From positions 22,838,534-22,902,533 of the forward strand of contig CM120644.1 in the NCBI GenBank assembly GCA_051362555.1: a DNA stretch of 64,000 nucleotides, written 5' to 3'. The first letter of the stretch is position 1; each line of letters opens with the position of its first letter. The DNA is from Lingula anatina. Its lineage: Eukaryota; Animalia; Brachiopoda. Position numbers and translations under genes: made by a program. The notes under the pieces are model-generated. The model saw only the letters and a program-made list of their open reading frames with translations. It had not been told where the DNA came from and did not search any database. Shown here one piece after another: positions 37,529-60,715 of this stretch.

Positions 37529-37537
37529 TATATAAAG
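37529..37537 (+). promoter_or_regulatory. TATA box of the LRP1-like/pentraxin gene
   Basis: TATATAAAG 66 nt upstream of the ATG (aaccATG) at 37595. Confidence 0.6.
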
Positions 37538-37594
37538 GGAGCCACCCTAAGAAAAAATAAGAAAACGAACTCGTGCCGGGGCCAGTCGAAAACC

Positions 37595-39073
37595 ATGCAT
37601 CTTTTAGCAGCGTGGATACTGCTCCTTTCCGCTGGCTCAGTCTTCACAGGTAAGTCTGTATTAAATAGTTGTATCTATTTAAAATGTACTGATATTACGT
37701 ACGATTCATTGTGGTGGTGAAAACTTAGAACAACGCAGTTCCTACTAGGTCAAATATATATCTCACATACATGTTGTTTCTTAAGAAATTATTTTTTGAC
37801 AACTAAAACTAACTGATAGCCACTTTACTGTACCTCTATATCCTGACGTATAATAAACAAACTGGTCTGTAGAGATAAAAAAATAAACATTTTTTACTTG
37901 TACCCGCTTTGTTCTCTCAGGTTGCGACATGACATTGAACCAACATCAAATTTTGACTCCTGAGATGATTTTTTTTCTGGCCAAAAAGGCGTTTTTCTAG
38001 CAAGAGACCCAACCCTGTTCCATGTAACCCCCCTACATTGTATACGGCCTGACTCATGAAGTACAATATATTATTTTAAAAAAAGTGCCAAGGTACGCTA
38101 TAATTGTTGGCATTACTGAACCCGGTTGGAAGAAAACTAGGGGGGATTAAACAAGAGGAGCACATCCGGATTTTTTGTCCCCGTGAAAGTTATTTTCCTT
38201 TTCCCGAGATGCGAAAAATGTTCATATTCATTTAGCGAGATCCTTGAAGTACCTCGCACCGTACCCCGTTTATATATTTTCTAGAAATTATCCCTCGCTG
38301 TACGTGAAATGAAGTCATTATACTCGATTATTCGTGATTTCCAACTCATTTGTCCTAAATTTTCCACGAGAAGTTTTATTTCCTGTGATCTACGAATTGA
38401 TGAATTTATTTCCTGTTAATTATAATCCCACCCCACTAGCGCCCTCCATAAAGCAGATCTGCCATAGTATTACTATGAGCGGGAACATGCCAGTGAGAAG
38501 AAAGAGTGTAGTTCTATAGGATATCGCATCATTTAATCTTCTAGTCGTATATTCAATATTTCTGTCGTACCTGGTGAAAAGGCATAAATAACAATAATAA
38601 TAATAATAACACAACTATGAAAAAAATCAGTTACAGATTTTGAGGACATCCGTAAAATTCCATTAATACTAAGATAATATGAATGATAAGTTATGAATTA
38701 TTTTACATTTAACATTTTAACTGCCGAACTTTTAATGATTTTAGACTTTAAATAAATATCAGAATTGTTTTTTTTTTTTTTTTTTATTATTGTTCTATTT
38801 AGATCGTTGCCTGTATCTCATTTCAGATGTCTCGCCATGTGATCAGTGGGGTGCCTGCAGCCAGCAGTGCTCACAGACGTCACTGGGTTACACGTGCTCT
38901 TGTTACCATGGTTACATTTTAGACCCGGATGGCTGGACTTGCAAGCCAGAAGGTAGTTCCGGATGTTTTTTTTTTTTTTTTTTTTTTTGATAGTTCTCAT
39001 GGAATAACCATCAGTTTTGTAAACGTGTGAGGGTGGTTAGAGCAAAACTAAAAAAAAAATAAATAAATAAATT

Positions 39074-39104
<31 letters not shown>

Positions 39105-40221
39105 CGTATGTAATACAACATTTACAGCCAACCTAGTCCTTTTTGGTGGTTTGGTATTTAAACAGAATTTATTATTTTGTAATTGACATCAGCTTTATTT
39201 TGCACGCTTCAATAGCTGTATCAATTTCACACAACGTAGTACATTGTTTCTCTTTCAACAAGATCTTTTCATGTCCTCCCTGGGCTAAATAAAAAAGAAA
39301 AGGTCACAAGTAACAACATCTAGAAAATAAATAAATACTGGGTAATATAGCCGCACCGGATAAAACCCATTTCCATTGTTGCCTGGATACAAAGTTAATA
39401 TATTTTGCAATACTGAAATATCTGTCACATGTTATACATTTAACACTTCAGGTACGGAAAGACCGTATATATTGTATACGCTCCGTCATGAGATAAGACT
39501 AGTGGACTTGGATGGACAGGCGTCGGTTGCTCTGGACAGACTGAGAAACACTGTGTCCCTGGATTACTACGATAAGAACAGAACCATATTCTGGTCGGAC
39601 GTCATGGAGGATAAAATATACAGAGGAGTCATGGACGCCAACCGTAAGTACAACTACATTGGTTTATATGCGCCGCAGCCTCGTGCTTTCAGTATTTCAT
39701 TAGCAATCAAAAGTAATTGTGGATATTAAAGACGCATGCAAAGCGAGAGATGAATCCCTGTTGAACATATAAATCGCTACTATCAGTCTCCTACTGAAGA
39801 CATATAAGGTGTATGCATGTTCAAAAAGATTAACCAAATTGTTCACTCGGTTGGCAAAAGTACTACTTAAACACTGCATCTTCTTCAAATATCTGGTCGT
39901 AAACTTGTCCTGTTAATTCGTCTTGGCAGTTCGTAAAACTCCGCCAAATGACGTAGTAATGCAGAAGGTATTAGGTAAGGTTTTGCGTGTGCTTCTTATT
40001 CAAACGAGATACGAGTTGAAAATATTTGTCGGGTTTAGAGGCAGTTACTTGACTTGCCTGTTGACTCTGTATGCTACTTGAAAGGACGAGTAAAAACATT
40101 ACTTTTTGCAGTGACAAATTTTTGTTGCTTTTCTTGAATTATCCCTAGAAATTCGAACATTTATACTTTTGTCACCAAGCGTCGTTACTGTGGTGACCTA
40201 GTTGTCGAAGGGTAGTTTTTC

Positions 40222-40261
<40 letters not shown>

Positions 40262-40796
40262 GTTGTTGTTGTTGTTGTTGTTATTGTTGTTGTTGGTGAT
40301 GATATTGTTGGTGATGTTGCTACTGTTGTTTCTGTTTCTTGATGTTGTTGTAAATGATACAATTTTTAAACTTCAAGACTTCATGTAAAACACCTTCCAT
40401 CTGATTTCAGACATAACCGATATCCAAGAGGTCGTTAGTGTTGGCCTGATAAGACCAGAGGGCATTGCTGTCGACTGGATAGGAGAGAACATCTACTGGG
40501 TGGACAGCAATCAACGCCAGATAGAGGTCGCCACCATGCAAGGCAAGCTCAGGTCGACGCTTGTAGCTGGGAAGATTAAGCAACCCAGAGCCATTGCTGT
40601 AGATCCCAGTGCTGGGTAAGCTGGTGACATTCTAAACGAACTTAAATTTAATTATTTTATAACGTTCTATTGAAATAAAATACGTCACCTGAAAAAAGAA
40701 AATTTACAATTAATTAGATATAATTAGAAATATCTGATTTAAGCCATATGTAATATGCGATAAAGACCTATAATTCCTGTATTGTTTGAATGATTG

Positions 40797-40842
<46 letters not shown>

Positions 40843-41100
40843 GACAAACAATTGCATTCAAACATTTCAGTCTATTATTCTGGACGGACTGGGAGAAGAA
40901 CAATCCTCGTATTGAGAGCTGTTCTATGAGTGGACATGGCCGGGCAGTCGTGGTCAACATCACTCTGATGGACAGTGAAGGGGCGTGGCCAAATGGACTG
41001 ACCCTGGACTATGACTTAAGGAGAGTTTACTGGGTGGATGCCAGGTACGGGCATGTTGTGCTGCTCTGTGTGTGGACACACATACACACACACACACACG

Positions 41101-41131
<31 letters not shown>

Positions 41132-44100
41132 TAGGATACCGGTATTTTAGAGTATACGCAAATTGGTTACGTGTCCTGCGCTGAGGAGCACGGAGGGGTG
41201 TTTAATGAACTTTAAGAATATCACAAAAGGCAGCACTTGTCACTGAGCAACTTTTCACAAGTTTCCACAGACTCACCATTGCCCAGGAGAACTTTGTCAC
41301 AAATTATTTTGACCCGAATCTTTGAAACTAAAAACTGTAACACGTAACTCAAACTGGCTGCTTTTCCATTTTTGTGAGTTTATTGCCTGAGAAGCGAAAA
41401 CCCCTCATGCGAACCAACATGCATATTTGATTGGAATTTGCAGACACGTGGATAAAAAGTAGACGACCTTGAACGGTTGACTACAAGGCATCTGTTTACT
41501 GGAACTGATAGGACTACAGGCTATTTGGGGTTGAGGTCAGAGAGTCCAACATGTCAGCAAAACAGCTATGCAAACAAATGTTATAAAGCAGGCCTTGTAA
41601 ACGGAAAAGAGCTATCGCCAAATTGACCATTCAAGCCGCGATAATGACAAGCAAAAGTAAAAATACTTGCTGCGCACACAGCGGTGCGAATGAAATCAAT
41701 TCATCTTCCCGTTTGGTGCGTTTTAAATTAGAATAATGATCAAATTAGTGCAATTCATGTATTAATACACGTATTAATATTGAGGCTTGCATGGGTAGTA
41801 CACTGTATATTTTAATATCACACTGTATATTTTAATATCACACTTATAATAAATATCATTCTTTAAAAAGAATGATATTTATTATAAGTGTGATATGTTC
41901 TTAGGTCTTAAAATCTAATTCTAATTATAAAGATATGCAAAGATGGGCATCAAAGTAATAACAAAACTGTCAAACCGTACTACTGTCTAGGTCGGACACC
42001 ATCAGCACGGTACGGTATGACGGAAGCGACTACAGGGTCGTGTTGAAGAACCATCGTCTGCTCTCACATCCCTTCGCCATTGCTGTGTTTGGCTCCAATG
42101 TGTACTGGACTGATTGGAGAACCAACTCGCTCATGGAGGTAGTTCTTGAAATACGTTGTGTAGACATGTTCATAATTGTGGCAGTGTTGGAAATCGTTGC
42201 TAATATGTATATATTATTGGGAAACATCTCGCTTTTACATATTTGTATGTATACTGTATATATAATGATTTGCTTATTTCGTGGGGACTTCGGTATATGG
42301 TGAAGTGCACATGGCAGTTTTGAAAAAAGTTCAAAAAAGTTCAAATGAATGTACTATTTATCGTTGAGAAACATGTCGCTTTTTATATATTTTACATATA
42401 TATTTATTTGTACGTCATTTTTGCGCTGAGATGCGTCTTCCCTGTGGGGACTTTGGCATATGGTGAGATATGCGTATATGTGTTGCCTCTTTTTTTAGGC
42501 AAATAAATTTAATGGCAGCAGCGTCCGTGTGGTCCAGAGAACTTATGCACAGCCCTTTGACCTTAAAGTCTTCCACTCTAAGAGGCAGGCCCAGAGTAAG
42601 GGGTTCTCTCTTTATAAAAGTCGCACATGTGTCTTAATAAAAGAAAACAACAGAAAACTCCTTGTCATGATTAGAGATATATTCAATAAGCGTATTAATT
42701 TAATGCTCGTTTCATTTTTTACCTATATAGCTGGAAATATTGTGAAATAGTTAAAAAGTTAGTCTTTTAGTCGGGAACTTAACGCAAAACGCTGTTTTAT
42801 GTCTGTATGTTTTTAAAATACCAGTCTACTGGAATTTTAGTTTTTCTTAATTAAATATTTGACGTGGTTATATTATCCAGTGAAGAACCCGTGTGGTGAA
42901 AACAATGGCGGCTGTTCTCACCTCTGTCTGCTGGGTTTCAATGGCACAGCGGACTGCACATGTCCTTACTTCCATGTCTTACTGTCAGACAGGAAAACAT
43001 GCGCCCGTAAGTAGACTGTTCTTGTAAATATAATTTGTTAAGGTCATTTTGTAGTTTTGTTCTTACGAGATCCATGTTAGCTAAAGCTAGCTTGTCAGGG
43101 ACGAATGGATCAAGGCCGTTTTCTGGGTCTTTCAAAGGACGGTCAGATTTTCAAGTAAACATTGACGGGTATCTATTTTTGCTGTCGGAATAAAATGGAG
43201 GATAAAATGGAGGATGTATCAACAAAGTTAATTTTGAAAACTACCAGAAATTATCTGGACCCGCCCCTGCCTGTAGTATATAATTAACTCCAAACTGGTT
43301 GAGATTTAATTATGGCGTACCAGAAAGTTTGACTAGCTCAAAAGACAGCTTGTCCATTGTTCTCCTCTTTCAGTCAACAGTACATTCCTGCTCTACGCAC
43401 GTCACTATGAAATCCGTGGATTGGACTTAAACAACACCGACTTTGACGCCATGCCGACCATGTCGTCCCCTCACGTGGAGTTCCCTAAAGCAATGGACAT
43501 CGACCCTGTGTCCGGCATGTATTACTGGACAGACAGCCGTCATGGCACCATAAAAAGAGCTCGTATTATTGATGGGACGGACATTGAAACGGTCGTGAAC
43601 ACAGGTAATGTCTAACTGGTCTTTGCCTTTTGGTTTGGTAGGCGGTGTAACGGGAATGTAGTCCGCTAGGTACCGTACTTCACTTCCCATTACTTTGTAC
43701 AGGTGACATTCGTCCCATATACTAACCCAAATACTCCAACCAACCTGTACTCAGTGGCGGCTTTAGAGGGGGATCAGAGGGGTCCTGACCCTCTTTTAAA
43801 GACCAAAGATTTCCGGGCCCTCAAGCGGCCCCGAACCCCACGTCAAGCGGGGGGTGGGGGGTGGGGTGGGGGGCTTGCATTTGGGGACCCCCCCCCCTCC
43901 TTGAAATAATCCCGGACCCGCCCCTGCCTTTACTTATCTTATGGGAGCCCGAACGTCCATTCCAGGTACACCAGTGTAACGTGACCCGTGTAACGCTTCT
44001 CATTTATTTGTTCGTATACAAGTAAGCCTCGCCCTAGATTTTGATCCACTTAGGTCAGGCTAACTCTAACCATTATAACTAAAGGGAGGGTTGACTGTGT

Positions 44101-47100
44101 GTAACACGGACCCTCAGTTTCGTTACACCGGCACCCCTAGCATATATGCCAGAACACCTCGAGAGTCAGCGAGATGTCGTCTAAGCACATATGGCTAGAG
44201 GGTGGCAATGTAGTTCTTGACATACATACTTGGGGAAAGTACTAGCATTTCACCGAAAAACACCACTAAAACTGAATTAAGTTTATACCGCTACGTTCAC
44301 ATAAAAATAATATCTATAACATTTTGAGAGCAAGGGAAGAACAACACATTTATAATTTGACATTGCTATGTTAAAATGAACTGACGTACCACAGCATGCT
44401 GCCCCAGAACATTTTAAAAATAGCTTGTTTTGAAGTACTGTGACTGCAATGACACTGTTTGAATACTTTATTTATTAATTGTTTTGAAGGACCACACTGT
44501 ATCAGAATTCATCACTGTTTTCACCAGATCTGGACAACCCCAGTGGTTTAGCTGTGGACTATGTGTCTGGTAATATGTACTTTAGCACCACCAGGGAAGG
44601 TGTGGGCAGTATATGGGTATCTAGGCTGGACGGCAGGCAAAGACTGAAAGTGGTATATGATAGAAAGCCGATCACATCACTAGCTATCCATCCAAATAAA
44701 GGGTACGTTTTAAATGGTATTATTATTATTATTATTATTGTTGTTGTAGTTGTTGTTGTTGTTGTTGTTGTTCTCTTGTTCATGTATATGGTTGTTTAAA
44801 CTGTTTGGACAACCTACATTGTATATTTCCATATATCAGCTCATTACTGTTGTCAACAATTGTGATGTATTATTTGAAATTCCAAGTTATATAATTTCAG
44901 GTATTGGAACTTGGAATGAAATACATAATAGCAATCTGCGGAAGAGATAAATTTGATGATTGATGTAGCTGTTTATTTTGCTCTCCCAATACCAATGTTC
45001 CGTTTCAATAAAAATCATTTACAAATCAGATTCACTTCACTGTGGGTTTTCAGTAAAATCTTCTGGACGGAGGATGGCACCAATGCCCAGGTCGTATTTG
45101 TTGCCAATATGGACGGCAGCAATGTCCAGCAGTTTGTTCCCGACAGCCTGACCCACGTCGATTCTGCCTTCAAACTCTACAGTAAGAATTATACGTAGAT
45201 CTTAGATGATGTCCTTCTGTGTCGTATCTCTAATGGTTGTGAAGCCTTCAGCTTTTTTAATGAGGGGGTATCTGATTAGCGTTAATTGTTCTCGGAAAAC
45301 AGGTTTTCTACCTCCCCGCACCACCTTGTAGAGCAGGGATCCATGTATGTTGTCAAATTGTAATGGTTATAGACTTTCAAAACATTGAGAATTTAATGTT
45401 CTATTTATTCAAGCATCATGCGGCACTGTAACTTAAAGAAGCATTACATATACACTCTTTATTTGCACTAGGCACTGAAATAAACACACATCTATCAACT
45501 TAAATGATCAAAGCAATGTAACAGATATTTGGTAATTAGAATAAGATGTTATTTGATCCAGGTTTGACAATAGACGTAGACAACGAGAAGCTGTACTTTA
45601 TAAGCCAGGGTCTGAACTCTGGCACTCGCCGGATTACCTGGTGCAACTTTGACGGTTCTGACTCCCACATGGTGTCATTTGATCACAGTTTGAGTGACGT
45701 CAGAACACTAGCTGTCCACCAGGGTCAGCTCTACGTGGCCACAGGGTCGTCCATTGCTCTGGTTCACAGGACCGGAAGTGACGTCAGAGTGGAGATCCTG
45801 CGAGAAAAGACAGATGATATAACGTCTGTTAAGATCTTTGAAGGGAAGCAGAAATCTAGTGAGTTTCGATTTTACTTTTATCCTTTTTGTAGTTCTGAAT
45901 AAATTTGAATTACTTATATGCAATAAGGCTAGACTAATTCGTGATCAATTGAAATAAGATTATTTTAATTTAATGTTCTATTCATGCAAGCATAATATAA
46001 AATTTACTACTTGTCATCTAGGCCTATGGCTAAAATAACCAATTTTCCCAAGTAAAAACCAGGATAAAAGTGACATAAAATAGAATAATTAGTATAATTG
46101 TGCTTGTTAAAGAGTCTAATAAGCTCCAGCTTTACACAATCAGACAACGAAAAAATTAAAATGTCAATACATTGCGTAAACAATTAAAATTTAAACTTAA
46201 GTTCATGACCCGTCTAATGTTTTCAAATTCCTTCTATCCAGATCTCGGTAAGAACGCGTGTAGTGAGAACAATGGCGGCTGCTCCCAGGTGTGCGTCCCT
46301 GGCAACAACAACAATAACAACGCTGTATGTCTCTGTACAGACGGTTTTAAGCTTGGAGAGGACGGCAAAACCTGCCTTGGTGAGTGGGCTTTATCAATAG
46401 TATTGATTGAACAGGGTGGGCGGCATCCATTATCACTTTGTCTTGTTGTGAGTTTGGTTTTGTCATGGAAACAGATACCTAGATTGAAAATACGGATGTG
46501 TTTGTTATGGAGTTCATGTACTCAGTTGCTTTTATGATTAAAAAAAATAAATAAAACATGCATAATGTAAATGACTGTTTATAGCTCTGATAGGAGTATA
46601 TCAACAGTATGTGTCGCCATTACTGCATGTTTATTCTAAAAAAATATTACGTTTTAAAATTAATAGATTTATTAAATTGTAAATAAAAAAGTGCTATTCG
46701 AATTACAATCGATAGTATCATTGCGCCGCTTCGTCAGTAGTAAAATGCGTGTCCTTCCATTCCTTAGATATGAAACCGTTCCTGTTAATCACACTGGGAG
46801 CTAACATCCACGGCCTCTCTCTGAATGCAAGCTCCGCCCCAAACCGGACGACGACCACGCCCATCTATAGCTTTGGTATGCCAACAACCGCGGATTCTCA
46901 AGAAGGTAGGTGTATAATTGTTTTTTTAAAAATGGACTATTTTGACACATGGGCAGTGCTGAGAATAAATTTAATAAGCTGTTCTCTGTACTTAAGCTTT
47001 GTTTGGGTAAGATGTCCAATGTTTGTACTAACAGAAACGACAAGTGAAAAATATAATCAATGTTATGAAAGATTATAAAATTTTTTGGTGGTTCCTTAAC

Positions 47101-48501
47101 AGACTGTTATTAGTTCACTGTTGCATATTTATCCCATTTATTATCATTAGTGTCCATTTTCATTTTAATTCGTTTTCGGTGTGGTTTAAAAATGAATGAG
47201 TAAAGTATTAGGTCAAATTTAATTGACAAAAATATCACATCAAATCACCAATGCCTATTTTGAAGATGTACAAACAAACACATAAAACACATAACACACA
47301 TTAAGTATGTATTAACACCTAACACATTAAGTTAAACATATATTTCCCAGTATTTATCGACGTGTTAAGATTAAATATTATTGCCCTCTTTTATTGTTTC
47401 AATAATTATTTCACCATTTCCAGATCCCGAACCCTCCCTGTCACTCTCCTTGGGGGCAGAGATCCTCGGAATCTCTCTGAACGCTGATATCAACTCACAG
47501 CAGACGACAGACATGCTGACCGCAGCGGCTGTTGTGGATTTCCATGCAGGTAAAATATTTGATAAAAAGTGACATTGTATGGTTGAAAGTATACTACATT
47601 TGGATATTTGATTTAAAAAATCCCTCATTGGTTTCAAAAGTTAGCCAGATTAATTGGTTTACATAACATCAGTTACGACCAAAAGACTTTAAGTGATTTA
47701 TGTTGCACACTAATGTTTACTAGATTGAAATAGGGTTGATAATAGAAACTTTATATCTTTAACAAATTGAAAAAGAGAGAAGAAAAAAAAACATGAGGTT
47801 CATTTGAGAGACAGTGGAAGTCGCACATCATTTTGATATTTTTTATTATATTTTTTTCATTTTTATTATAATACCTCAGCTAATAGGTTCATATACTGGG
47901 CGGACAGCAGCTCCAAGACCATCTCCAGAATCCATCGAGACCGGAAGGAGATGCAGACACTAGTTTCCGGTGAAATCAGCTCAGTGCAGGGATTGTCTGT
48001 GGATTGGATAGCAGGTAAATTTACATGTAGATCTCAATAAGAAAGTTCTCAGTTTAAAAAACATAAGACCGAGTCCACTTTCTTACAATGTATATGTAAT
48101 TCTTGTCTTAAAACGGAAAACCTGTAATCAGGCCTACCCAACTACCAGACTCTGGACCGAATGATCCCGAATTCACCGGTAGATCAGACCACACTACCCG
48201 TTCCCAAGGTGTGTATCAGTACGCATTACACAGTATCAGATGCGACACCGCTCTTTCCTAGTACGCGATATGATTGTAACGATTCTCAGCGGAGTTGAAA
48301 AGTAATGCATCACGACTCAAAATTTGTTCGGGGTATGATACTGTGTAATGCGGACTGACTAACACCTTGAAAACGGGTAGTGTGGTCCGATCTACCGGTG
48401 AATTCGGGATCATTCGGTGCCGAGTCTGGCAGTTGGGTAGGCCTGGTAATGCTATCTGCAGTACTTAAACAAGCAACTGGTGTCTTCTCAATACAATGTT
48501 T

Positions 48502-48586
<85 letters not shown>

Positions 48587-48658
48587 CAGAAAATCTGTAT
48601 TGACCACAACGTGAGTAGGGCTAAAATATCTAAGAACAGATTTTCAAGGTATACTTCA

Positions 48659-48704
<46 letters not shown>

Positions 48705-51700
48705 AAAGTTCTTCAATACCAGAAAACCTGTACTGGACCGACAGTGACCTTGACTTAATCCAAGTGTCCAAACTAAATGGGTCATTCAGACGTGTGTTGG
48801 TGGCATCTGACCTGGACAGTCCAGCTGATATTGTGGTGCATCCAGTCCTGGGGTAAGGGAAACAGAAGTTGCTGAATCAGCTAATGGCATTTTATTTTAG
48901 TTGGAAACCCCTGCTGCATGCCAATTTAATTTTTAAGATAAAACATAGGTATAATCAAATGGGTAACTTGATGAGACAATGTGACAATTGCTATTCTGTA
49001 TTTTTCCAATTCTTGTGATTTTATAGCTGTGATATTTACAAATTACATTTAAAGAAAGCATTTAATGAGACTTTTTTATAGCTAAAATTAGTATTCCTGA
49101 GTTTTTAAAAAATTCAATTCCAAGGCATACACTATTCAAACGTTACCATCTATAAACCAATGTCCTAAGTTATTTTTACCTGTCAAAAGTGATGGCCGAA
49201 ACTCTCCAAAGCGCGTTTCAAAAACACGTTTATGGATTGTAACAGTTTTGTATATCGTACACGCAGACGATTGAATAGGAGTCTTGAAATTTGATCTACA
49301 AATTCCAATGCAGATTGGGTGACTTGCAGTTTGTCTATTTCTTTAATGCTTGTTTCGTCAACCAGGTACATGTTTTGGACTAACCAAGGTTCAAAACCCA
49401 GAATCGAGCGTGCACGACTCGATGGTTCAGAAAGAACAACAATCATGTCTCACACAGAGTTCACCCGGGAACCCAGCGGTCTGACCATAGATTACGACAA
49501 GGACAGGTTATACTGGTGTGACAAAGCACTTGACGTCATCTGTAGTAGCAACCTAGACGGAAGTGACGTCACATACATCATCCGGGACACTCTGACGGAT
49601 CCTTCCTCTATTACAGTGTCCGAGGAATACATCTACTGGACTGATAGGTTGGTACAGGGAATGTTGTATAGAAGACATAATGTTAGCATGATATACCTGA
49701 ATTGTATAAATAAATTGATAAAGAATGAATAAGTAAGTAACATTTGTCTACCACTTCATGTAGATTAGTAGTACAGTCATTTTACACATGAATATGTTTC
49801 GTCTTTTGTTTGATTAACATAATCGTCAAGGACAATGGTGTGCAGATACATATGAAGAAACCATCTGTCAGAGTCCCTAAATCAGTGTTGTGTGCAGCAC
49901 AATACATACCTAATAGAATAAGATAAAAAAAAAAAAAAATTCCATTTGTAACTCTTTTATCTGTTGCACGTGAAATTGTAATTTATATTTGTAATCTTGG
50001 CCGCGTAGCCCACCTAGCGCCCCCTATGGAGTTGTAATGAGAGCATTCAAAAATGGCACAGACCCAGTTATCATGTGGAGAAACACGGACTCAAAGACCC
50101 CGAGACCACATGATATAAAAGTGCATGACGAAGACAGACAGACAGGTATTTTAAGAAATAGAATTATAAAGTCCCTCTGTACAAGAAACGAACTGAATTC
50201 TTTCAAAAAGAGTGACACATTTTTGATGTTATTTTTTACTATAGGCCCTAGCTAAATTGACCTATCTATGACAAATATTAATAATCTAAGCTCATACTAT
50301 TCCCTTATTTTATGATTCCATATGCTTGCTTTTAAGTGCACGTTATTAATGATAAACATACATTCAGTCGCATTGGTGATCTTTAGAGGGAAATATTGCA
50401 GCCACATCAAACGGCTTCACTTGTTTTGGCACTTCATTTTTCAACCATCTGTCAATTGCAACTTTTTAACCATTCCGTCATCCTCTCTTGAATCGCCTCT
50501 AGCTTTCTCTTTAACGCTAATGGGATTTTGTTCCCTGTTGTAGGTGACAACATCTGCGGTTCAAATAACGGGGTCTGCAAGGAATTGTGTCTGTACATTG
50601 GTAACAACAGTAGGATATGTCAGTGTACAAAGGATGAGGAATGTCACAGTAAGTTGGCATATTCATCTTATCACCCCTGTATACAAACGTAAGCTTAGTT
50701 TAAATGAAAAATATATCACGAGTTAGTGAGGCGAATGACACACACGCGAGGACGAAGCGGAGTGATATTTGTTACCTGCACTTCACCTCCCACCAGGCTA
50801 AATTGTTTCTACCTGTAATCCCAGCTGTCTCTATTAAATGTTAAATTTTTGCACAGTCTGTGCACCTTATTTGGTTTTGACTTCAATTCTTATTGTTCAA
50901 ATCATTTACTATGTATGGATAAGAAACAAAAGACCTCTTTTGACTTAGGAATCTTACAATAGCCAATAGAAATGCACTACAAAATACATTTTCAGGAGGA
51001 GCCACTGTCCTGCGTTTTCCAGCGTCCCAGAGCACTGACAGATATGTTAAACTCACACCACCAGTGTATCGGTATAGGCCAGTATTGCCCGCCATTACCG
51101 CCTGCGTGAGATTAAAGACAACAGTCTCCACGGGAGAAAGATATTTCCTTTCGCACGCCACGTACTCATACGACAACTCCTTCATGTTGGGCTACAACTT
51201 GGCCGGGTCCTTCGTATTTCATATAAATAATGCCAAACAATACATACCTCTAGGGGGCTATATGATATTTGATGGAACTTGGCACCACTGGTGTTTCACA
51301 TGGGAGCAGCAAGGTGGCAAGTGGGCGCTGTATCTGGACGGCAAACAAAGAGCCAACGGATCTGGATTTATGAATCTTAGGTCAATAGTACATGGTGAGT
51401 GCTCGTGACTACAGCGTATAGATGGACACTTTTGAACAGGAAAAGGAAACATTATGTTGTTGGTTCAGTACTTGTCTTTCGGCAGAAAACCCCAGTGAGT
51501 GCCATAGTTTTAAATCATTGCGGTAAATTAATAAGTCTCTATTGATAAAACATTGCATTTACCAATAAATTTAAATGTCAAAAGACTACTCAATACCGGA
51601 AAATCTAAATTAAAAACTGTTTTTTTCCAGATGGAGAGTGGCTACTAGGACAAGACCAGGACTCGATGGAAGGCGAATTTCGAGCCGGACGGTCGTATGT

Positions 51701-54700
51701 AGGCGACCTATCCAGTATTAACGTGTGGGACCACGTCAACGTGAACATCACTGCCGCCGCTGACTGTAACGACACGCTCAGGGGAAACGTATTAGCGTGG
51801 GAAACTGTTGTCAAAGAGAGACACGGAGTCTACACCTATAACACAGATTTATGTAAATATAGCTGAGAGAGAGAGAGAGAGAGAGTGAGATAGAGTGAGA
51901 CGTGAAATATTTTCAATTACAAGTTTACCGTCCCAGACGCAAATATAACAGCAACTAACTCTTCTTATCAATTATCCATCGCGATGCTATTCGTCCCTTG
52001 GTTAAGGATAAAACTTGTATATGTATACAGTATACATTTTACCGTTAGCTGTATGACTGCTCTGCGTTCAAGCTTACTTAGTGATATTTCCCGTTAAATG
52101 CAGATTAAATCAAAATACAGAGATGGGTCACATATTGTCATTACATGTTATCCAATATTCATACTTCATATGTCTCTTAGCATCTTACATTTTCTTTTAC
52201 ATGTTAAGAACAAAGGTAACGAGGATCTACCGGTACTGTCTTTTATAGTAAGTTATATAGACTACAGGCTTACTTGAATATATATCAAACTTAAATTATT
52301 TAATTACTTATTTTAGGTCCCTTCTTAACTGAGTGGACGAATTGGGTAGACTGCAATGCCACGTGCGGCGAGGGCAACCAAATAAGGACTCGAAAATGTT
52401 TGCCAACCGGAAGTCTGTGTACCGGAAGTACCGTTGAGAAGCGTTTAGCTGTGACAAAACAAAGTAATTTAAATTTTAAGTCATTGATCAACTTATTTTT
52501 TAATAAGATGATACTTTGAAAAAAGGTACAGTAATAATATTGTAATTGTTTTTTCATTATTTAATTTCTGAAGATAAGTAAAGACGTTATTGCGTTGTAT
52601 AATTTTGGAACACCATTTGTTTCTTGTAAATTATTTCCTCTGCACCCTTAACCTTACACAGCCATTCAGAATGCATCTGATGCCTAAACGAATCTTCCAA
52701 ATAACTTACATGTTTTTATACTAACATTATGGAAGTCATCATTTCTGATGTATTTTATGAATTAAGTCTCGACAAGTGCAGATCTTTGGTAATGCTAATC
52801 AGCTGGGTATTGTACTTTATTGAGAATAAACAAATTCACATTTTTATCCTGAATATCTTCATGTAGATTTTTTATACCGGATATTGCACTTTATTAAAAA
52901 ATTCAGCTGCCTTCTTTATATTTTAAATATTTGCACACATATAGGCTAACCAAAAAGCAATATTTTCAGGGAGGGCCTCAGTGATCCGTTGGACAGCACC
53001 CCAGAGCATTAGCAAGTACGTGGAACTAACGCCAACCACACCAAGTATGACTGCGGTAACGGTCTGCTTCAGAATGAAGACCACGCTCGCCAAGGGGGAA
53101 ATATACGTCCTCTCGTACGCCACAACTTCGTATAAAAACGCCCTCTTGTTCGGGTACGACATGGCGGGATCTTTTATCGCCCTCGTGAATAATGTTAAGA
53201 AATACATACCTGTCCCAGGCTATGAAATCTTTGATGGCACGTGGCACCACTGGTGTTATACTTGGAACAAAAATGGCGGTAAATGGGCACTTTACATGGA
53301 CGGCAGACGGATATCATCGGGCGCTGGTTTAATGAATTATAGGACTGTACCTTCCAGTGAGTACCTATAACTATAGATTAACTTTTCAGCTAGTGTGAAC
53401 ACAAATGTTATATCTTAATATTTTATTTCTGTCGCAAATTTCACATTATGAATCAAATTGTTTAATGTTTGTCTATTTCAGTCGATTGTTTCATTTTCAT
53501 ACAAACATTTCACGTTCACCGATATCATACTCGATTGAAAACAACAAGACATTAATTAAAGATGCGAATGATTTTCTAGAAAGCATAAGGTTCAAATGTC
53601 TTCTTATAGGTGGAGTGTGGATAGTTGGACAAGATCAAGACACTGTTGGGGGCGGATTTCAAGTCTTTCAGTCATTTATCGGAGACTTGACCAGTATCAA
53701 TGTGTGGAATCACGACTCACTTAATCTCACTGAGGCACCAAACTGTGACGACACAATCAGGGGAAACGTCATAGCGTGGGATGACGTCACAAAGAAAACC
53801 CACCAAGTGACAACACATGAAGAAGATCTATGTGAGTATATAAGGAATTTAAAGGGAGTGAGAGAGATGAGACGCCAAAAAAACAACGTTGACTTAAAAT
53901 AAAATATTATGTCACATTATTTTAAGCATTGGTGATCGATTGTAAAGAGAATATGCTTGTTTTTTTGTGAAACAGGACGTTTCATTGATGTCACCCAGGC
54001 TCTTTGAATGAGTTACTGACTGTCATGCCTCATGGGAAATATGTTTTCATAGAAACGGTTTATAATATATTAACAATATTGAAAATGAAAATAAGTATTT
54101 CCAATGGCACACTCTTATTAAATTTTCATCGTGGTTTATGATCACTGTTCTGATGCTACCCGCAAGAAAATGCAGTAGTATCGAAGTAGCAAAGAAACAG
54201 TAACGCAGTAGTGGTGTGGAGCATATTTGCAGTAGAAATGCAGTATAGCCTACTGCAATTCTACTTCAAAAATTACATAGGGTTGTACAGAGGAGGAGCA
54301 TAAATGCAGTAGATTAGCAGCATGATAGAAGCATGTTTCAAATATGCTAATTAGCTCCCACATCGAATCAGATTTGAAGCATGTTCGCAGTATAATTGCA
54401 GTAGTCTACTGCGCTGGAGTATCTACTTCATTTTCGTGCGGGTACCGACAGGACAAGCCTATAAGACTTCCACGGTTATACAAAGACAGATGTTTGTCAA
54501 TTGTAACTGTGATTTTCATTTCTGGGTTATTTTTGAATTTGTAAACATTGAATAAGTTGGAATATTGTCACAAAATTGCTCAAAATGATGTCTAGTGTGA
54601 TACTTGCTTTCGCTTTTTCTTCTTATCGATTTTCTGTACACATTCCCTAAATAAATAAACACATAATAAAGCATTAAAGGTGAAACACATCTTTCAATTC

Positions 54701-57700
54701 CTGTACATTTTAGGTTCCTACTTGAGTGAGTGGTCAGATTGGTCGGATTGTGACGTCAGATGCGGCCATGACAACCAAAGGAGTCGAGAGTGCATGGATA
54801 TGAGCAAACAAAGTAATCTTGAATTTGTGTGTGATTGGTTTGCCACAGTGCCATTTTAGTCTGTTTTTAGAATTAAGTATAGGCAATAACATTGCACAAG
54901 TGTGGAAGCCCGTGAAATCAATGTGTGAATTCCAGTAAACTTTTTATTGTGGGTAGGGGCGACAGTTAACTCCTAGTGTTGTAAATCAGATTCAATGACA
55001 ATACCTGTGTCGTATAGTTCAATAATTTTGGAATCCATCTGAATCGAACAAATTTAGTTAATTTTCAGTGTCGTCGCTTATATACCTGAACTGGAACCGT
55101 AATACTGTAAACGACTTGAAAACATTAAAAAGTTCCACACATGCTCTTTTGTCGCAGTTGTCCAGTTAAGTATGTTCTGCTCCGAATTTCATTCAGTTTC
55201 GTCTGTCTTTAACTCTGAAGACGGTTAATACAAAAGGCACATACTATTTCCAGAGAGGGCATTGGTGGTTCATTGGCCGGCGCCTCAGACTACGCGTAAA
55301 TACGTCCAGCTTAGACCTGAGAAAGTTCCAATGTCTGCCATCACAGCCTGCTTGAGAGTTAAAACCACGCTCATGCCACGCATTGAAACGGGCATCCTGT
55401 CGTACGCTACCCCTGCGCACGATAATGCCTTCCTGTTTGGATACAATACAGCAGGAACACTTTTCTTCTACATCAATGGTCAAAGGAGAGTTAAAACTGT
55501 AGAGGGTTACCGGATTTTCGATGGCAATTGGCACCACTGGTGTATTAGTTGGAGCCAAAACGGTGGGAAATGGGCGGTGTTCGTTGACGGCAACCAAAAA
55601 GCATCCGGTTCTGGTTTTATGAGGAATAATGTCATCGATGCTAGTAAGAGCTGATCACATCGAAAAGTGGTAGTTTATTGGAAAGTCTAACACATGAAAG
55701 GCCTTCAGTCAGTTGTTTTTTATGTATAGAATCAGAGTTTGCTATGTGCAACATACCGTATAGGAGTTACATTCTGATTTTAATATAATTTTGTATAGTT
55801 GTATGACGTTTTTTTTTTTTAATTTTCAATAAAAGTCACTTACATTCATTAAGCTTTCAAATAAATAAAATCCGGAGATTTATGAAGAAATAAAGCAAAT
55901 GTGTCTTGTGTGTCTTGTTTCAGATGGCGCCTGGATACTTGGACAGGACCAGGATCATATTGGAGGCGGATTTCAGGCACAACAGTCCTTTTTAGGCGAC
56001 ATATCCAGTGTTAATGTGTGGAACCATGACTCTGTCGACGTCACCGCCGCGGCAAACTGTGACGACACCATCAGAGGAAACGTCATAGCATGGGAGACTG
56101 TGGCCAAAAAGAGCTCTAGAGTATTGAAGTATACAGCGGATCTCTGTGAGTATGAGAAGAGAGAGATGGAGGGGAAGACGATAATCTTTGTTGAAAATAA
56201 AACATTCAAAAATCAAGGCCAATATATTTCAGTTCAGAAGCATATATAAATGTTGCGTATGCTAGTTCCTGGTCCTCGATATCTTATATATAGGAATTCG
56301 CATCTCGGTCCTATTGCCGTTTTACGTTTCAGTCATTCCAACATATGGACCGTCCTGCTTATCTGTTATTTTAAATTCTCTACAATGACTATCATTCAGT
56401 GTTGGACTGGCTTGTATTTAGGTCCCGACACAAGTAATTACCTGACGGGCTCCGCTTGTGACGTCCCGTGCTCCAAAATCAACCAAACAAGGACCCGAGA
56501 ATGTTTGCCATCTGGAGCGGTGTGTACCGGAAATACCATAGAGAAGCGGGGACCTTGTGCGTGAAAGACTTTGGTTATGTCTATCTCTATATAAACCACA
56601 ATATAATTGAATAAGCTTTTGTATAAATTAAAATACTGAAATTGTACAACATTTATATTAAGATGACGTCACATCTCGTTGATGTGAGTGTATTATTTTG
56701 ATTGAACGCGCCCTTACTTCTCGTTAATAAATGTATTTTACTGGATTTGAATATAATATTAATCCAACCGAGGATATTTAGATGGAACTGTCATTGTAAA
56801 CAATTAGGGACCAATCCCAGACCCTATATGTGGATCGATTAATATCTAAGGGGTTTCTCGCTAAATTTATTTCAACTTAGATGACTGGCACGCCTACTGA
56901 AGCTGCAAGGGGGTAATTATTTATCGCTTAGTAGCTTCAGTAGGCGTGTCAGACATCTAAGTCGCTTTAGCTAAAAGCAATTTAGCAAAAAAAAAAAAAA
57001 AAAAAAAACTGGGAAATGGATCAATCCTGCTTGATCGATCTAGTATGAGAACGGGATCTTATTGTTATCATTTATGTTCCTCCTGCTCATGTTAGGTCCC
57101 TATTTAACTATGTGGAGCGAGTGGACAGACTGCGACGCCACATGCGGTGAAGGAAACCAAAGAAGGACACGGGAGTGCCTACCATCCGGAAGTGTGTGTG
57201 TCGGAAGCACTGTTGAGGAGCGTTTGGCTGTGATAAAGCAAAGTAATTTTATTACATTGTTGCTCATATTTAAGACAGTGTATATTTGTTTTGATAAGCC
57301 TCCCAGTATAAGAAGACGGAATTGATTTTGGTCGCTTGTTAGTTTCCTACAACTGATTCATTTACCTTATCTATTCAATTATGTAGCACGAAGAGGTAAA
57401 ATTATTCATATCCATATATTACTGTATGTGGAAATGTGTCATGCTTATTAAGAACAGATAAATTCAGGATTCAGTATGTTTGCCTTTGAGAATTAAACAT
57501 CCATGAAGGCTCAGCATGGCAAAATATATCGTTTTCAGGGATGGCCTCAGTGATTCGTTGGACAGCTCCCCAGAGTATTGGCAAGTACGTGGAACTCACG
57601 CCAACCACACCACGTATGACTGCCGTAACAGTTTGCTTCAGAATGAAGACTACCCTCGCCAAAGGGGAAATATACGTCCTCTCGTACGCCACACCTTCGT

Positions 57701-58504
57701 ACAAAAACGCACTCTTGTTCGGGTACGATATGGCGGGGTCTTTTATAGCCCTCATAAATGATGCCAAGGAATATATACCAGTTCCAGGCTATGAGATATT
57801 TGATGGCACTTGGCACCACTGGTGTTTTACTTGGAACAAGCGTGGCGGTAAATGGGTGCTTTACATGGACGGCAGACGGATATCATCAGGCACTAGTTTT
57901 ATGAGTTATAGGACCATACCAGCTAGTGAGTATTTGTAAACATCCGTTGATTTATGCGCTATGTTGGCAACGTGGCAAGTGTTTCTTGGTCTTTCTAAAG
58001 CAGGTTATATTTAAGAAACATTAAATAGCGTTATTTTAGAAAACGCATTCATTGAAAATCACGCCAATGGCCATTAACTATACAGATCATGATATTGTTC
58101 GGTAAACGATTCAAACTCAATTTGGTTCACATTTGATAGTGAACATCTTATTAAAAAAAAAAGTACGTATGCAGTAATTCAATTCAAATTCATCAGAGGT
58201 CAGATGCAAATAATTTCATCAACAAGTGTAATTCGAACCATATCTTCTTTTAGATGGAATGTGGATAGTTGGACAAGATCAAGACACAGTCGGGGGCGGA
58301 TTTCAAGTCTTTCAGTCATTTATAGGAGACATGACCAGTATCAATGTGTGGAATCACGACTCCCTTAATCTCACTGAGGCATCAAACTGTGACGACACAA
58401 TCAGGGGAAACGTCATAGCATGGGATGACGTCACAAAGAAAACCCACCAGGTGACAACACATCAAGCCGATCTATGTGAGTAAAAGAGAAGAAGAGCAAA
58501 GTGT

Positions 58505-58542
<38 letters not shown>

Positions 58543-60667
58543 TCTTTATTTTAGTTCCTCTTAAGTCTCGAATATAATATCCATATCAGTACAATTTTAA
58601 AACGTTTTTTTTATTTTATTTCCCATCGTGGTACATCCGAATATTATTTCCATACATGTATAAGTCAAACATCTCTAGATTAGTACATACTTTTATTTGA
58701 AGTCCTTTGTTTCACTTTCAAATGTGCTTGCTCGTATTCCATGTATTCCTTTGAAGTGTTTAAATTAGTAATACAAACTAGAATGTAAGAGTTCTATGAC
58801 TGACTATTACCTTTTACCTATATCAGATTGACTAAATTGATAGTCACATAAAGCTTGGGAATATCTTCTCGTCTAGGTTCCTACCTTAGTGAGTGGTCAG
58901 ACTGGTCTGATTGTGAGGTCACGTGTGATGATAGCAACCAGAAAAGGAGCCGCGAATGTCTAGCCATGAAGCAGAAAAGTAATTGTTAAATGGCTGTTTT
59001 GGGTTCATGTGCTGACTGACAAGTTTGGTGACGATGTAAGAAGTTGGTAAAATGATGGCGCGAAACAGTTGATTACAGTTTTATTCATTACAGCACAAAC
59101 CTGTTCATGCACAAAACGAGTGTGTTTTCTCGTCCTTAAAGAGGTATACAAAGTCAATTTTTTGTCACAAAAACCAACCAAATGCCCGAATATAGTCTCA
59201 AGTAGTATAACTAAGATAATTACCAAAAGGCATTGTTTAATTTTACCCAAAAATGATGTTTGAACAGATTTTTCTGCTGGCATTCTAAGCTGTATGTCAA
59301 TGGGGCAGGAAAGTAGGTCACGGAAGTAGGTTAAATTTACAACCATAAATTTGAAGAAAAGAGCAGTCTAAAGGTCTTTTATGGCTGATCGAGTGATCTA
59401 TTCAGTTTATCTCTTGGCATGTCGAATTTATTTGAGTAATATAAGATTCTAGTAGAAGTGCTTTACATGTGTTCCTGGGAATCCACACTCCACCGATGCT
59501 CGGTTCGTATGTACCTTTAACATACCAGGCACATCTCCTGAAACATTCTAATCTTATAACCACATCTCTTTAACTTCTTATATCATACTTTATTCCTTTC
59601 CTTTATGTTTGCGGCGCTCCCCTACAGATCCACACGCATTCTTAAGATACTTTTAAATAATACTCATTTATGTGCAAACGATTATAAAAACTTTTCCAAT
59701 CCAATGCAAATAGTTACATACAACTGCTTTTTTTAAGCTTGTAGATTTATGAACATCAACTGTTACAAACTACAAACATATTTCCAGAGAAGACATCAGT
59801 GGCGTATTGGTCACCACCTCAGAGCACTCGAAGATACCTTCAGCTTAGACCAGAGAAAGTTCTGATGTCTGCCATCACTGCTTGTTTGAGAATCAAGACC
59901 ACCCTCACCTCGGGAACAACATGTATCCTTTCTTACGCCACACCTGAGTACGATAACACCTTCCTGTTTGAGTATCATTCAGAGGGAACCATTGGTGTCT
60001 ATGTTAACGGTGAAAGAAAAATCATCCCTATCCCAGGCTATCAGATCTTCGATGGTGTCTGGCACCACTGGTGTTTTACATGGAAGAGGCGTGGAGGGAA
60101 ATGGGCACTGTATGTGGATGGCGAGAGAAAGGCAGCAGGCTCTGGTTTTGTGAGATATAAAACTATGCCAGCTGGTACGGGTCATTTACCATTGATAAAG
60201 AAGTTTAGATATGTGATTAAAGAACTGCTTTCATTGCTTTCTGAAGCAATTATAGTACTTAATAAAATATAATAAGATTGATTGTATCGATAACGTTTTT
60301 GCATTCAGGAATTCTTTACTATGACACATTTTATGAGTGCTTTTCACCAAAAAACACTAATATATATATTTCATGATCACATAATATGATGGAAAATTGT
60401 ATCCATAAAATGAGGGTTAAAGAAAACGTGCCTGAATTGTTTCAGATGGAGTGTGGATAGTTGGACAGGACCAGGATAAAGTTGGGGGCGGGTTCCAAGC
60501 CGAGCAATCATTTCTGGGCCATTTGAGCAGTGTCAATGTGTGGGACCACACTGACGTTAACATTAATGCCGCGGCTAACTGTGACGACACAATCGGTGGA
60601 AACGTCATATCATGGAATAACGTCACCATAGTGAACCATGGGGTGCCCACGTATGGCGCAGATCTGT
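37595..60667 (+). CDS. Chimeric secreted protein: signal peptide + LRP1-like EGF/YWTD propellers x3 + (pentraxin-TSP1)n, at least 5 pentraxin domains; 3' end of long form not seen
   Basis: Exons 37595-37649, 38827-38952, 39452-39643, 40411-40615, 40871-41044, 41991-42138, 42499-42595, 42881-43006, 43374-43604, 44528-44702, 45054-45181, 45562-45858, 46242-46379, [46768-46905 and/or 47424-47549], 47880-48014, 48723-48852, 49366-49647, 50009-50145, 50544-50648, 50996-51394, 51631-51852, 52317-52463, 52970-53356, 53610-53831, 54714-54812, 55254-55643, 55924-56145, [terminal 56422-56564 or] 57096-57242, 57539-57925, 58254-58475, 58877-58978, 59788-60174, 60446-60667. All are GT-AG, phase-compatible and stop-free. 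Confidence 0.8.
41835..41896. repeat. Perfect 30-bp-arm hairpin in an intron
   Basis: atatcacacttataataaatatcattcttt-aa-aaagaatgatatttattataagtgtgatat, preceded by a 20-bp tandem duplication at 41801-41840. Confidence 0.85.
43752..43926. mobile_element. hAT-like MITE
   Basis: cagtggcgg...ggacccgcccctg with a 7/8 TSD cctgtact/cctttact. Confidence 0.65.
48129..48445. mobile_element. MITE with ~100-bp TIRs and a 5-bp TSD
   Basis: caggcctacccaact...agttgggtaggcctg with GTAAT on both sides. Confidence 0.85.
54159..54442. mobile_element. MITE with CCC termini and TA TSD
   Basis: cccgcaagaaaatgcagtag...ctacttcattttcgtgcggg flanked by TA, with internal gcagtag repeats. Confidence 0.7.
56807..57058. 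mobile_element. Harbinger-like MITE (TTA TSD)
   Basis: TTA flanks and an internal hairpin ttagatg..tg.cacgcctactgaagct/agcttcagtaggcgtg.ca.acatctaa. Similar to the copies at 18873 and 63819. Confidence 0.65.
59140..59516. mobile_element. Kolobok-like (TTAA) MITE, copy 2
   Basis: Same length as 21072-21448 and highly similar to it, with TTAA flanks. Confidence 0.75.
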
Positions 60668-60715
60668 GTAAGTGTGTGTGTGTGTGTGTGTCTGTGTGCT
60701 CTTGTGCACGCATTC

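What the first reader, a model, noticed from the sequence alone, without database searches (positions are those of the whole stretch)
37595..60667. Chimeric LRP1-propeller / multi-pentraxin secreted protein: candidate novel lectin-scaffold system
Seen: a TATA box and an 18-aa signal exon splice straight into EGF-[YWTD-EGF]x3. The last EGF exon (50544-50648) ends in phase 1 without a stop. Only 347 bp later a phase-1 pentraxin exon begins, with no signal exon visible in between. Known: the propeller sequence follows LRP1 propellers 3-5, whereas true LRP1 has LDL-A ligand clusters and a transmembrane tail and no pentraxins. Inference: a mid-gene piece of LRP1 was duplicated, given a new promoter and leader, and exon-shuffled onto a tandem pentraxin array. 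This yields a ~1745-aa or >2180-aa protein that puts several pentraxin domains on one chain instead of in a pentamer. It could be a pattern-recognition, adhesive or matrix protein. I know of no described protein with this architecture.
Basis: partly seen in the sequence, partly recalled or inferred. Interest (0 to 1): 0.85.

Follow-up and report, generated by a model that had tools for sequence, protein, structure and literature searches.

The report
Brachiopod LRP1-propeller five-pentraxin fusion protein
In the lamp shell Lingula, RNA reads join a copied middle piece of the LRP1 receptor gene to a row of pentraxin domains, giving a predicted secreted chain with five pentraxins that likely bridges a host protein to calcium-binding targets; databases hold it only as split, misnamed automatic models.

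Summary
A 35-exon model (37595-60667, 2278 aa, no stop, all GT-AG) reads signal-EGF-[YWTD-EGF]x3-PTX-TSP1-PTX-TSP1-PTX-TSP1-TSP1-PTX-TSP1-PTX. RNA reads span 37649/38827 (4 reads), the key joint 50648/50996 (45 reads in X7, 29 in X8; none listed in X5 or X6) and 54812/55254. The organism is Lingula anatina. RefSeq already holds the fusion as XP_023930314.1, named LRP1 and cut after the second pentraxin. A second database copy supplies the end beyond the window: TSP1 plus a mucin WxxW domain, no membrane helix, about 2420 aa in all. The propellers are LRP1 propellers 3, 4 and 5 and evolve 1.6-2 times faster than annelid LRP1. The five pentraxins come from a Lingula-native family. Of the 150 best array relatives among 1.84 billion representatives, only this protein also has propellers. 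Multi-pentraxin chains as such are predicted in amphioxus and hemichordates, so that part is not new. Function is inferred: a secreted bridging protein. An intact Lingula LRP1 was not checked. Verdict: a real, apparently undescribed lineage-specific domain shuffle of moderate interest, not a new kind of system.

The parts
37529..37536 (+). TATA-like box, 59-66 nt before the ATG
   Evidence: sequence only; no start cluster listed in RNA
37595..37649 (+). exon 1, predicted signal peptide (aa 1-18)
   Evidence: hydrophobicity scan; spliced to 38827 in 4 reads with 4 starts, run X4
38827..38952 (+). exon 2, EGF domain that precedes LRP1 propeller 3
39452..42595 (+). exons 3-7, YWTD propeller A = LRP1 propeller 3; keeps E141, R184, N234
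   Evidence: 50-55% identity to LRP1; tree support 100; residues
42881..43006 (+). exon 8, EGF
   Evidence: RNA joints on both sides
43374..45858 (+). exons 9-12, YWTD propeller B = LRP1 propeller 4
   Evidence: 27-37% identity; tree support 100
46242..46379 (+). exon 13, EGF
   Evidence: joint to 46768 in 6 reads of X7
46768..47549 (+). exons 14 and 15, tandem duplicate of the first exon of propeller C (42-aa insertion if both are used)
   Evidence: they align to the same LRP1 position in 6 of 7 and 7 of 7 LRP1s; 0 of 2000 shuffles reach their mutual score; no RNA joint 14-15 or 15-16 listed
46768..50145 (+). exons 14-19, YWTD propeller C = LRP1 propeller 5; E/R/N positions are Q822, A865, S911
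   Evidence: 35-40% identity; tree support 96
50544..50648 (+). exon 20, last EGF, six Cys kept, last loop shortened
   Evidence: RNA joints on both sides
50649..50995 (+). 347-bp phase-1 intron at the fusion point
   Evidence: spliced out in 13+32 reads (X7) and 12+17 reads (X8)
50996..51852 (+). exons 21-22, pentraxin 1 (Arg at CRP positions 147 and 150)
52317..52463 (+). exon 23, TSP1 spacer
   Evidence: RNA joint to 52970
52970..53831 (+). exons 24-25, pentraxin 2 (Lys at CRP position 60)
54714..54812 (+). exon 26, short TSP1 spacer; RefSeq ends its model here, RNA splices on to 55254
   Evidence: 24+31 reads in X8, 62 in X7
55254..56145 (+). exons 27-28, pentraxin 3 (calcium-ligand positions kept or conservatively changed)
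56422..57242 (+). exons 29-30, two TSP1 spacers
57539..58475 (+). exons 31-32, pentraxin 4 (89% identical to pentraxin 2)
58877..58978 (+). exon 33, short TSP1 spacer
59788..60667 (+). exons 34-35, pentraxin 5; open GT donor at 60668, with the TSP1-WxxW end outside the window

Best explanation
This is one expressed Lingula gene whose RNA splices three LRP1-derived beta-propellers in frame onto a row of pentraxin domains, and its product is predicted to be a secreted chain of about 2420 residues with five pentraxins that likely works as a bridge in mucus or extracellular matrix. Origin (inferred): a DNA-level copy of the LRP1 exons for EGF-[propeller-EGF]x3 (propellers 3-5) gained a leader exon and was joined through phase-1 introns to a Lingula pentraxin exon pair and TSP1/WxxW exons; a TSP1-PTX-TSP1-PTX-TSP1 block then doubled. 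Action (inferred): propeller A keeps the Glu-Arg-Asn top face that grips short peptide loops in megalin and related propellers, so it likely holds a host protein; pentraxins 3 and 5 keep the calcium-ligand positions and likely bind an anionic surface other than phosphocholine; TSP1 rods space the pentraxins so that avidity comes from one chain; the WxxW end points to mucus or matrix. Propellers B and C and pentraxins 1, 2 and 4 are likely spacers or have changed specificity. My odds: single fused gene about 0.93, all five pentraxins on one chain about 0.85, bridging role about 0.5.
For: Shown: open 35-exon model. RNA joints 37649/38827 (X4, 4 reads), 50648/50996 (X7 45 reads, X8 29) and 54812/55254 (X7 62, X8 55); the flanks of these two joints are only 46-73% like other joints of the array, below the 86% cut-off. 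Stranded run X6 reads only the + strand in exons. Both database contigs (126,345 and 184,323 bp) carry propeller-half and pentraxin-half models. Propellers fall in the LRP1 p3, p4 and p5 clades at 100, 100 and 96; A and B are sister to the annelid Owenia at 85 and 88. The five pentraxins group with a stand-alone Lingula pentraxin at 97; the TSP1 spacers are about 50-65% identical to a Lingula TSP1-WxxW protein. Of 59 codons touched by 62 listed read differences, 31 changes are silent and 28 change a residue, none gives a stop, against 23% silent sites by chance. E141/R184 align with megalin Glu469/Arg512. CRP Asp60/Asn61 align with the DN of pentraxin 3.
Against: No binding, location or tissue data. 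X5 and X6 list no read for 50648/50996 (X5 has no depth there, X6 depth 2-3, 7 joint rows hidden), and the supporting reads are mostly only 90-95% like the window, so they come from a divergent allele, copy or population. X1 shows no coverage of the exons at 95% likeness. Three of five pentraxins have lost at least one calcium ligand, and position 147 is Gln in the other two. Selection looks weaker on the propellers (12 silent, 18 changed) than on the array (19 silent, 10 changed; the PTX2 rows may hold PTX4 reads). LRP2 was not in the tree, and an intact Lingula LRP1 was not among the 120 listed of 887 hits.
Confidence: 0.55

Rival explanations
1. The propeller block is a dimerising stalk: it pairs like the head (propellers 3-6) of megalin or LRP1 and presents ten pentraxins as an agglutinin or opsonin.
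For: The captured block is three of the four head propellers, which form about 40% of the megalin dimer interface (PMC11145282) and the main interface of the modelled LRP1 dimer (PMC13403279). The model has 19 N-glycosylation sequons.
Against: Propeller 6 is missing, and propeller 3-6 hydrogen bonds are singled out in the LRP1 model. Propellers B and C have diverged fast.
Confidence: 0.2
2. Shell-matrix protein that binds calcium phosphate through its pentraxins.
For: Lingula builds shell proteins by domain shuffling, TSP1 and WxxW domains occur in its shell proteome, and Pentaxin is an enriched term in one supplementary table whose gene set I did not read. That pentraxins can bind apatite is recalled, not tested.
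Against: The domain table of the published shell proteome has no Ldl_recept_b and one Pentaxin, in another (21,010-aa) gene model. The array is not acidic (pI 7.6).
Confidence: 0.1
3. Soluble decoy that competes with LRP1 for ligands of its head region, the pentraxins only setting its place.
For: Propeller A is the best-kept part (50-55% identity) and keeps the peptide-binding triad; megalin binds ligands in this region.
Against: It lacks all LDL-A clusters, the main ligand sites. The array shows the stronger constraint, which a mere tag would not need.
Confidence: 0.08
4. Two or three neighbouring genes with read-through splicing, or a shorter product that ends after pentraxin 2, as the RefSeq models have it.
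Against: Fusion-joint reads in X7 (45) and X8 (29) are as many as at the joints before it (38-55 and 24-42). The RefSeq ends run through splice donors, and P0002 starts at an inner Met without a leader. No second signal exon was seen in the introns read.
Confidence: 0.05
5. Not a copy but the remains of the only LRP1, broken up in this lineage.
For: No Lingula LRP1 among the 120 listed of 887 long hits; no genome was held to check.
Against: Full-length LRP1 is present in the vertebrates, amphioxus, urchin, arthropods and annelid. The faster rate fits a freed duplicate. That search took only proteins of 2735-5000 aa, so a split annotation would be missed.
Confidence: 0.02

Closest known systems
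LRP1 (LDL receptor-related protein 1), propellers 3-5
   Same: Colinear EGF-[YWTD-EGF]x3, 38-42% identity over about 1030-1060 aligned residues; each unit's best match is propeller 3, 4 or 5 in 7 of 7 LRP1s.
   Different: No LDL-A clusters, no propellers 1-2 or 6-8, no membrane helix or NPxY; fused to pentraxins; faster rate; doubled first exon of propeller 5.
RefSeq XP_023930314.1, XP_023930315.1, XP_013395146.1 and XP_013401690.2 (Lingula anatina)
   Same: The same gene or its allele or copy, 83-100% identical exon by exon; the first already joins propellers to two pentraxins.
   Different: Automatic models named LRP1, uncharacterized, or neuronal pentraxin-2-like; split into pieces; none gives the whole chain.
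Neuronal pentraxins NPTX1/NPTX2, Limulus SAP-like pentraxin and CRP
   Same: Best solved relatives of the pentraxin domains (E 4e-30, 5e-22, 3e-16); signature and calcium-loop motif present.
   Different: Those have one pentraxin per chain and oligomerise (CRP pentamer); here five stand in a row, and CRP Phe66 and Glu81 are not kept.
Predicted multi-pentraxin chains of Saccoglossus (9 and 4), Ptychodera (5) and Branchiostoma (5 and 7), and a 4-pentraxin SVEP1-like protein of Sinanodonta
   Same: Several pentraxin domains on one chain.
   Different: No YWTD propeller, no TSP1 in the Pfam scans of these, and separate origins in the tree. All are uncharacterised models.
Fusion pentraxins such as zebrafish CA VI-PTX and SVEP1
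   Same: A pentraxin exon added to an unrelated secreted protein (PMC5723433).
   Different: CA VI-PTX has one pentraxin and forms a pentamer of chains; the partner domains differ.
Nidogen (works-like comparison; its role as a matrix bridge is recalled)
   Same: Secreted, with a YWTD propeller that grips a peptide loop and other binding modules at the far end.
   Different: No nidogen G1/G2 domains; three LRP1-type propellers at the N-terminus.

Membership tests
LRP1 / LDL-receptor family | YWTD propeller-EGF modules | tested here: met
   Pfam PF00058 E 3e-79; alignment and tree
LRP1 / LDL-receptor family | LDL-A (complement-type) ligand clusters | tested here: not met
   No PF00057 in P0001-P0003; no motif in six frames of the window; exon 1 splices straight to the EGF exon in X4
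LRP1 / LDL-receptor family | Membrane helix and NPxY tail | tested here: not met
   No hydrophobic stretch after the leader and no NPxY in the model; the database copy of the end stops after WxxW, highest 19-mer 1.18
LRP1 / LDL-receptor family | Descent from LRP1 rather than LRP2 | tested here: inconclusive
   The named rows among the 120 best long hits are LRP1 or generic names, none LRP2; colinear over the whole block; LRP2 was not in the tree
Short pentraxins (CRP/SAP) | Pentraxin domain with HxCx[ST]W signature | tested here: met
   5 of 5 domains; PF00354 E 3e-56 and 2e-86
Short pentraxins (CRP/SAP) | Calcium ligands D60, N61, E138, Q139, D140, E147, Q150 | tested here: inconclusive
   PTX3 and PTX5 read D,N,D,Q,D,Q,Q; PTX2 and PTX4 have K60; PTX1 has R147 and R150. 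The 138-150 loop was mapped by motif spacing. Binding not measured
Short pentraxins (CRP/SAP) | Phosphocholine pocket (F66, T76, E81) | tested here: not met
   In the CRP alignment PTX3 has G, Y, R at these places; position 66 is G or E in all five
Short pentraxins (CRP/SAP) | One domain per chain | tested here: not met
   Five domains in one reading frame; RNA links PTX1 to PTX3 except for the unlisted joint 22-23
Short pentraxins (CRP/SAP) | Ring assembly of the domains | not tested
Adhesion GPCRs with a pentraxin domain | GAIN and 7TM region after the pentraxin | tested here: not met
   P0129 ends in TSP1-like plus Mucin2_WxxW (E 1e-8), no 7TM
Deuterostome multi-pentraxin chains | Three or more tandem pentraxin domains | tested here: met
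Deuterostome multi-pentraxin chains | Common origin of the array | tested here: not met
   Lingula domains form their own group with a single-domain Lingula pentraxin, support 97 (quick tree of 62 rows)
Lingula shell matrix proteins | Peptides in the shell proteome | tested here: not met
   No Ldl_recept_b in Supplementary Table 27 of PMC4595640; absence from one proteome is not proof

The most novel reading that the evidence does not exclude
A brachiopod has turned the ligand-binding, dimerising head of the LRP1 receptor into a free secreted module and welded it to a single-chain pentraxin pentamer: the five domains close into one mixed ring, or two chains pair through the propellers to show ten, giving an opsonin with alternating specificities. 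It would be a natural stand-alone test of what the LRP1/megalin head does without the rest of the receptor.
Probability: 0.15. Interest if true: 0.72.

Novelty: new variant of a known kind. Interest (0 to 1): 0.45.

Why it matters
It is an RNA-backed case of a new secreted protein built from the middle of an old endocytic receptor and two Lingula-native gene families, with the steps readable in intron phases and trees. It corrects four split or misnamed RefSeq models. The captured block is most of the LRP1/megalin head, only lately recognised as a ligand and dimer site, so the protein offers a soluble natural version of it. Against that, domain-shuffled secreted proteins are common in marine invertebrates and are already a stated theme of the Lingula genome paper, and no function is shown.

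Tried and rejected
No genome was held, so an intact LRP1, the number of copies and the DNA after 64000 could not be read. No indexed RNA holder was listed; the nine runs came by species label. The first lay at 95% likeness did not list the fusion joint; the second at 86% did. A single-sequence AlphaFold2 model of P0002 was useless (mean pLDDT 38.8) and was not searched. Complex prediction of pentraxin 4 with pentraxin 5 was not available: no verdict. Atlas look-ups gave only leads under 0.9. The word-based search with the array found 6 proteins of 859-2734 aa; only P0001 has PF00058. Pfam missed the WxxW domain in the cut P0002 even at E 10 and found it in the complete P0129. Rfam found nothing in 33000-64000. 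Earlier findings of this scan: none in three look-ups. One spurious Owenia interval was dropped before the propeller tree. The pentraxin tree used 62 rows: 5 window domains and 57 chosen from 155 database domains, with 3 of 9 from P0130 and 2 from P0133.

Full report
1. Observation. The sequence is as described. A TATATAAA stands at 37529-37536, the ATG at 37595, and exon 1 ends in phase 1 at 37649. I built the exon model by hand from the six-frame translation and corrected three boundaries over two trials. The final model has 35 exons from 37595 to 60667, 6835 nt, 2278 codons, no stop, and GT-AG at all 34 introns. It reads signal-EGF-[propeller-EGF]x3-PTX1-TSP1-PTX2-TSP1-PTX3-TSP1-TSP1-PTX4-TSP1-PTX5 and ends on an open donor. 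Every intron from 50145 on is phase 1.

2. Organism and database state. The first pentraxin exon is 100% identical to XP_023930314.1 of Lingula anatina (P0001, 1562 aa, named prolow-density LRP1), which already joins three propellers to PTX1-TSP1-PTX2-TSP1 and stops by reading through the donor at 54813. The next model on a contig of the same length (P0002, 846 aa) starts at an inner Met of PTX3. A second contig (184,323 bp) carries the front half (P0003) and the end (P0129: PTX5, a TSP1-like module and a complete Mucin2_WxxW domain, E 1e-8); that these pairs share a contig is inferred from equal contig lengths. The tail has no match in 60668-64000. Adding its 146 residues gives about 2424 aa, with no membrane helix.

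3. RNA. Nine runs were offered by species label; seven were laid. At 95% likeness over 33000-52999, run X4 gave 4 reads with 4 starts across 37649/38827; the fusion joint was not listed and X1 did not cover the exons. At 86% over 49300-55500 the joint 50648/50996 appeared in X7 (13 exact reads plus 32 with one other letter) and X8 (12 plus 17), about as often as the two joints before it; X5 (no depth) and X6 (depth 2-3) list none, with 7 rows hidden. The joint 54812/55254, where RefSeq cuts, has 24 exact plus 31 variant reads in X8 and 62 variant reads in X7. Its flanks are 69-73% like the similar joint before PTX5, and the fusion flanks are 46-61% like three other joints, so cross-mapping is unlikely. 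The X7 and X8 reads are mostly 90-95% like the window, so they show the fusion in a divergent allele, copy or population rather than in the window's own haplotype. Of 59 codons touched by the 62 exonic differences displayed in the two tables (a small, best-supported part of those found), 31 changes are silent, 28 are not, and none is a stop, against 23% silent sites: both halves look constrained, the array more.

4. Origin of the parts. The front 1030 residues align in one piece with LRP1 residues of about 1230-2310 at 38-42%. In 7 of 7 LRP1s the three units match propellers 3, 4 and 5 best, and in a tree of 56 LRP1 propellers plus these three they join those clades at 100, 100 and 96, two of them beside the annelid Owenia at 85 and 88. 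They have 1.6-2 times as many unique changes as Owenia LRP1 (160 to 82, 131 to 81, 140 to 86). LRP2 was not in the tree. Nineteen introns lie in the front half (exons 1-20), which favours a DNA copy over a retrocopy (inference). The first exon of propeller C is doubled. The five pentraxins are 50-61% alike except PTX2 and PTX4 (89%) and group with a stand-alone Lingula pentraxin at 97. The TSP1 spacers and the tail match a Lingula TSP1-WxxW protein. The order of spacers suggests that a TSP1-PTX-TSP1-PTX-TSP1 block doubled (inference).

5. Distribution. Against 1.84 billion representatives, P0002 found 3613 proteins at E 0.001 or better; of the 150 listed, 1 has a YWTD propeller, P0001 itself. 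The word-based search found 6 array relatives of similar length, again only P0001 with PF00058, and none of the 120 listed long propeller relatives carries a Pentaxin domain. Chains with several pentraxins do exist as uncharacterised models in Saccoglossus, Ptychodera, Branchiostoma and Sinanodonta, with separate origins. Other brachiopods may simply be missing from these collections.

6. How it likely works. Megalin propellers grip peptide loops through a Glu/Asp-Arg pair, some with an added Asn (PMC11145282, passages and section 6). Counting along the alignment, megalin Glu469 and Arg512 fall on E141 and R184 of propeller A, which also keeps N234; all three are invariant in 7 LRP1s. Propeller C has Q, A, S where most LRP1s have E, R, N. 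CRP binds calcium by D60, N61, E138, Q139, D140, E147 and Q150, and phosphocholine by F66, T76 and E81 (PMC6503050, one passage). PTX3 and PTX5 read D,N,D,Q,D,Q,Q; PTX2 and PTX4 have Lys at 60; PTX1 has Arg at 147 and 150; the choline pocket is not kept. The simplest reading is a secreted bridge: one working peptide-binding propeller at the front, two likely calcium-dependent pentraxins and three altered ones spaced by TSP1 rods, and a mucin-type end. None of this binding is shown. Propellers 3-6 also form the dimer head of megalin and of modelled LRP1 (PMC13403279, passages), so pairing is a live rival, weakened by the loss of propeller 6. A shell role is less likely: the domain table of the shell proteome has no Ldl_recept_b (PMC4595640: passages, two supplement searches and supplement part 9 of 24).

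7. Literature. I found no description of this architecture in these searches: Lingula+pentraxin (17 papers, 15 listed); YWTD+pentraxin (2 papers; the passages read concern separate proteins: PMC7853314, PMC6626399); brachiopod+pentraxin+immune (3, listing only); multiple or tandem pentraxin domains (33 papers, 30 listed, none of them with either of those two phrases); and three broader searches seen as listings only. PMC9334734 and PMC5723433 were read as passages. Subscription journals are mostly not in the library; a survey of Lingula immune genes in one (recalled, not seen) could mention the gene, and supplements other than that of PMC4595640 were not read.

8. Verdict. Real, expressed, constrained and, as a combination, unique in what I could search, but already present as an unnoticed automatic model and built in a way that is common in marine invertebrates. 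It is not a member of the LRP1 or CRP families; it likely works like a nidogen-type bridge with pentraxin heads. New variant of a known kind; interest 0.45.

Noticed in passing
window 37595-43604 against P0001 and P0003: The window is 94-100% like P0003 in exons 1-11, but only 83-96% like P0001 in exons 1-9 and 96-100% in exons 10-26. This looks like a mosaic of two haplotypes or copies, by recombination, gene conversion or assembly.
   Followed up: partly
window 49300-55500, runs X6-X8: Reads of X7 and X8 are mostly 90-95% like the window and X6 shows two types near 50:50, well above the 1.6% genome heterozygosity reported in PMC4595640. Deep alleles, a paralogue or a divergent population.
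   Followed up: partly
window 2968-6799 (+) and 35982-36149 (-): Cytochrome P450-like exons (by eye), and a 168-bp inverted copy of the last exon at 97% identity 1.4 kb before the fusion gene's ATG.
   Followed up: no
window 31283-33216 (+): Small secreted-looking gene with a leader exon and a VWD-like domain (weak Pfam hits, E 0.03-0.09), 4.4 kb upstream; its leader does not look like the fusion gene's.
   Followed up: partly
window 20510-20974 (+): Single Cys-rich ORF with a hydrophobic start and no convincing Pfam hit.
   Followed up: partly
window 54156-54444: Intronic stretch with read depth near 450 in X6 and mixed loose ends on both sides: likely a dispersed repeat transcribed elsewhere; no Rfam match.
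   Followed up: partly
window 59132-59520, 48129-48445 and 262-565: A 389-bp repeat 93% like 21064-21452, and two palindromic elements of about 310 bp that look like small non-autonomous transposons.
   Followed up: no
P0131, P0132, P0138: Three other predicted chains also have exactly five pentraxins (amphioxus, Ptychodera, one unnamed), of separate origin where tested; other arrays have 3, 4, 7, 8 or 9. Whether five is favoured is open.
   Followed up: partly
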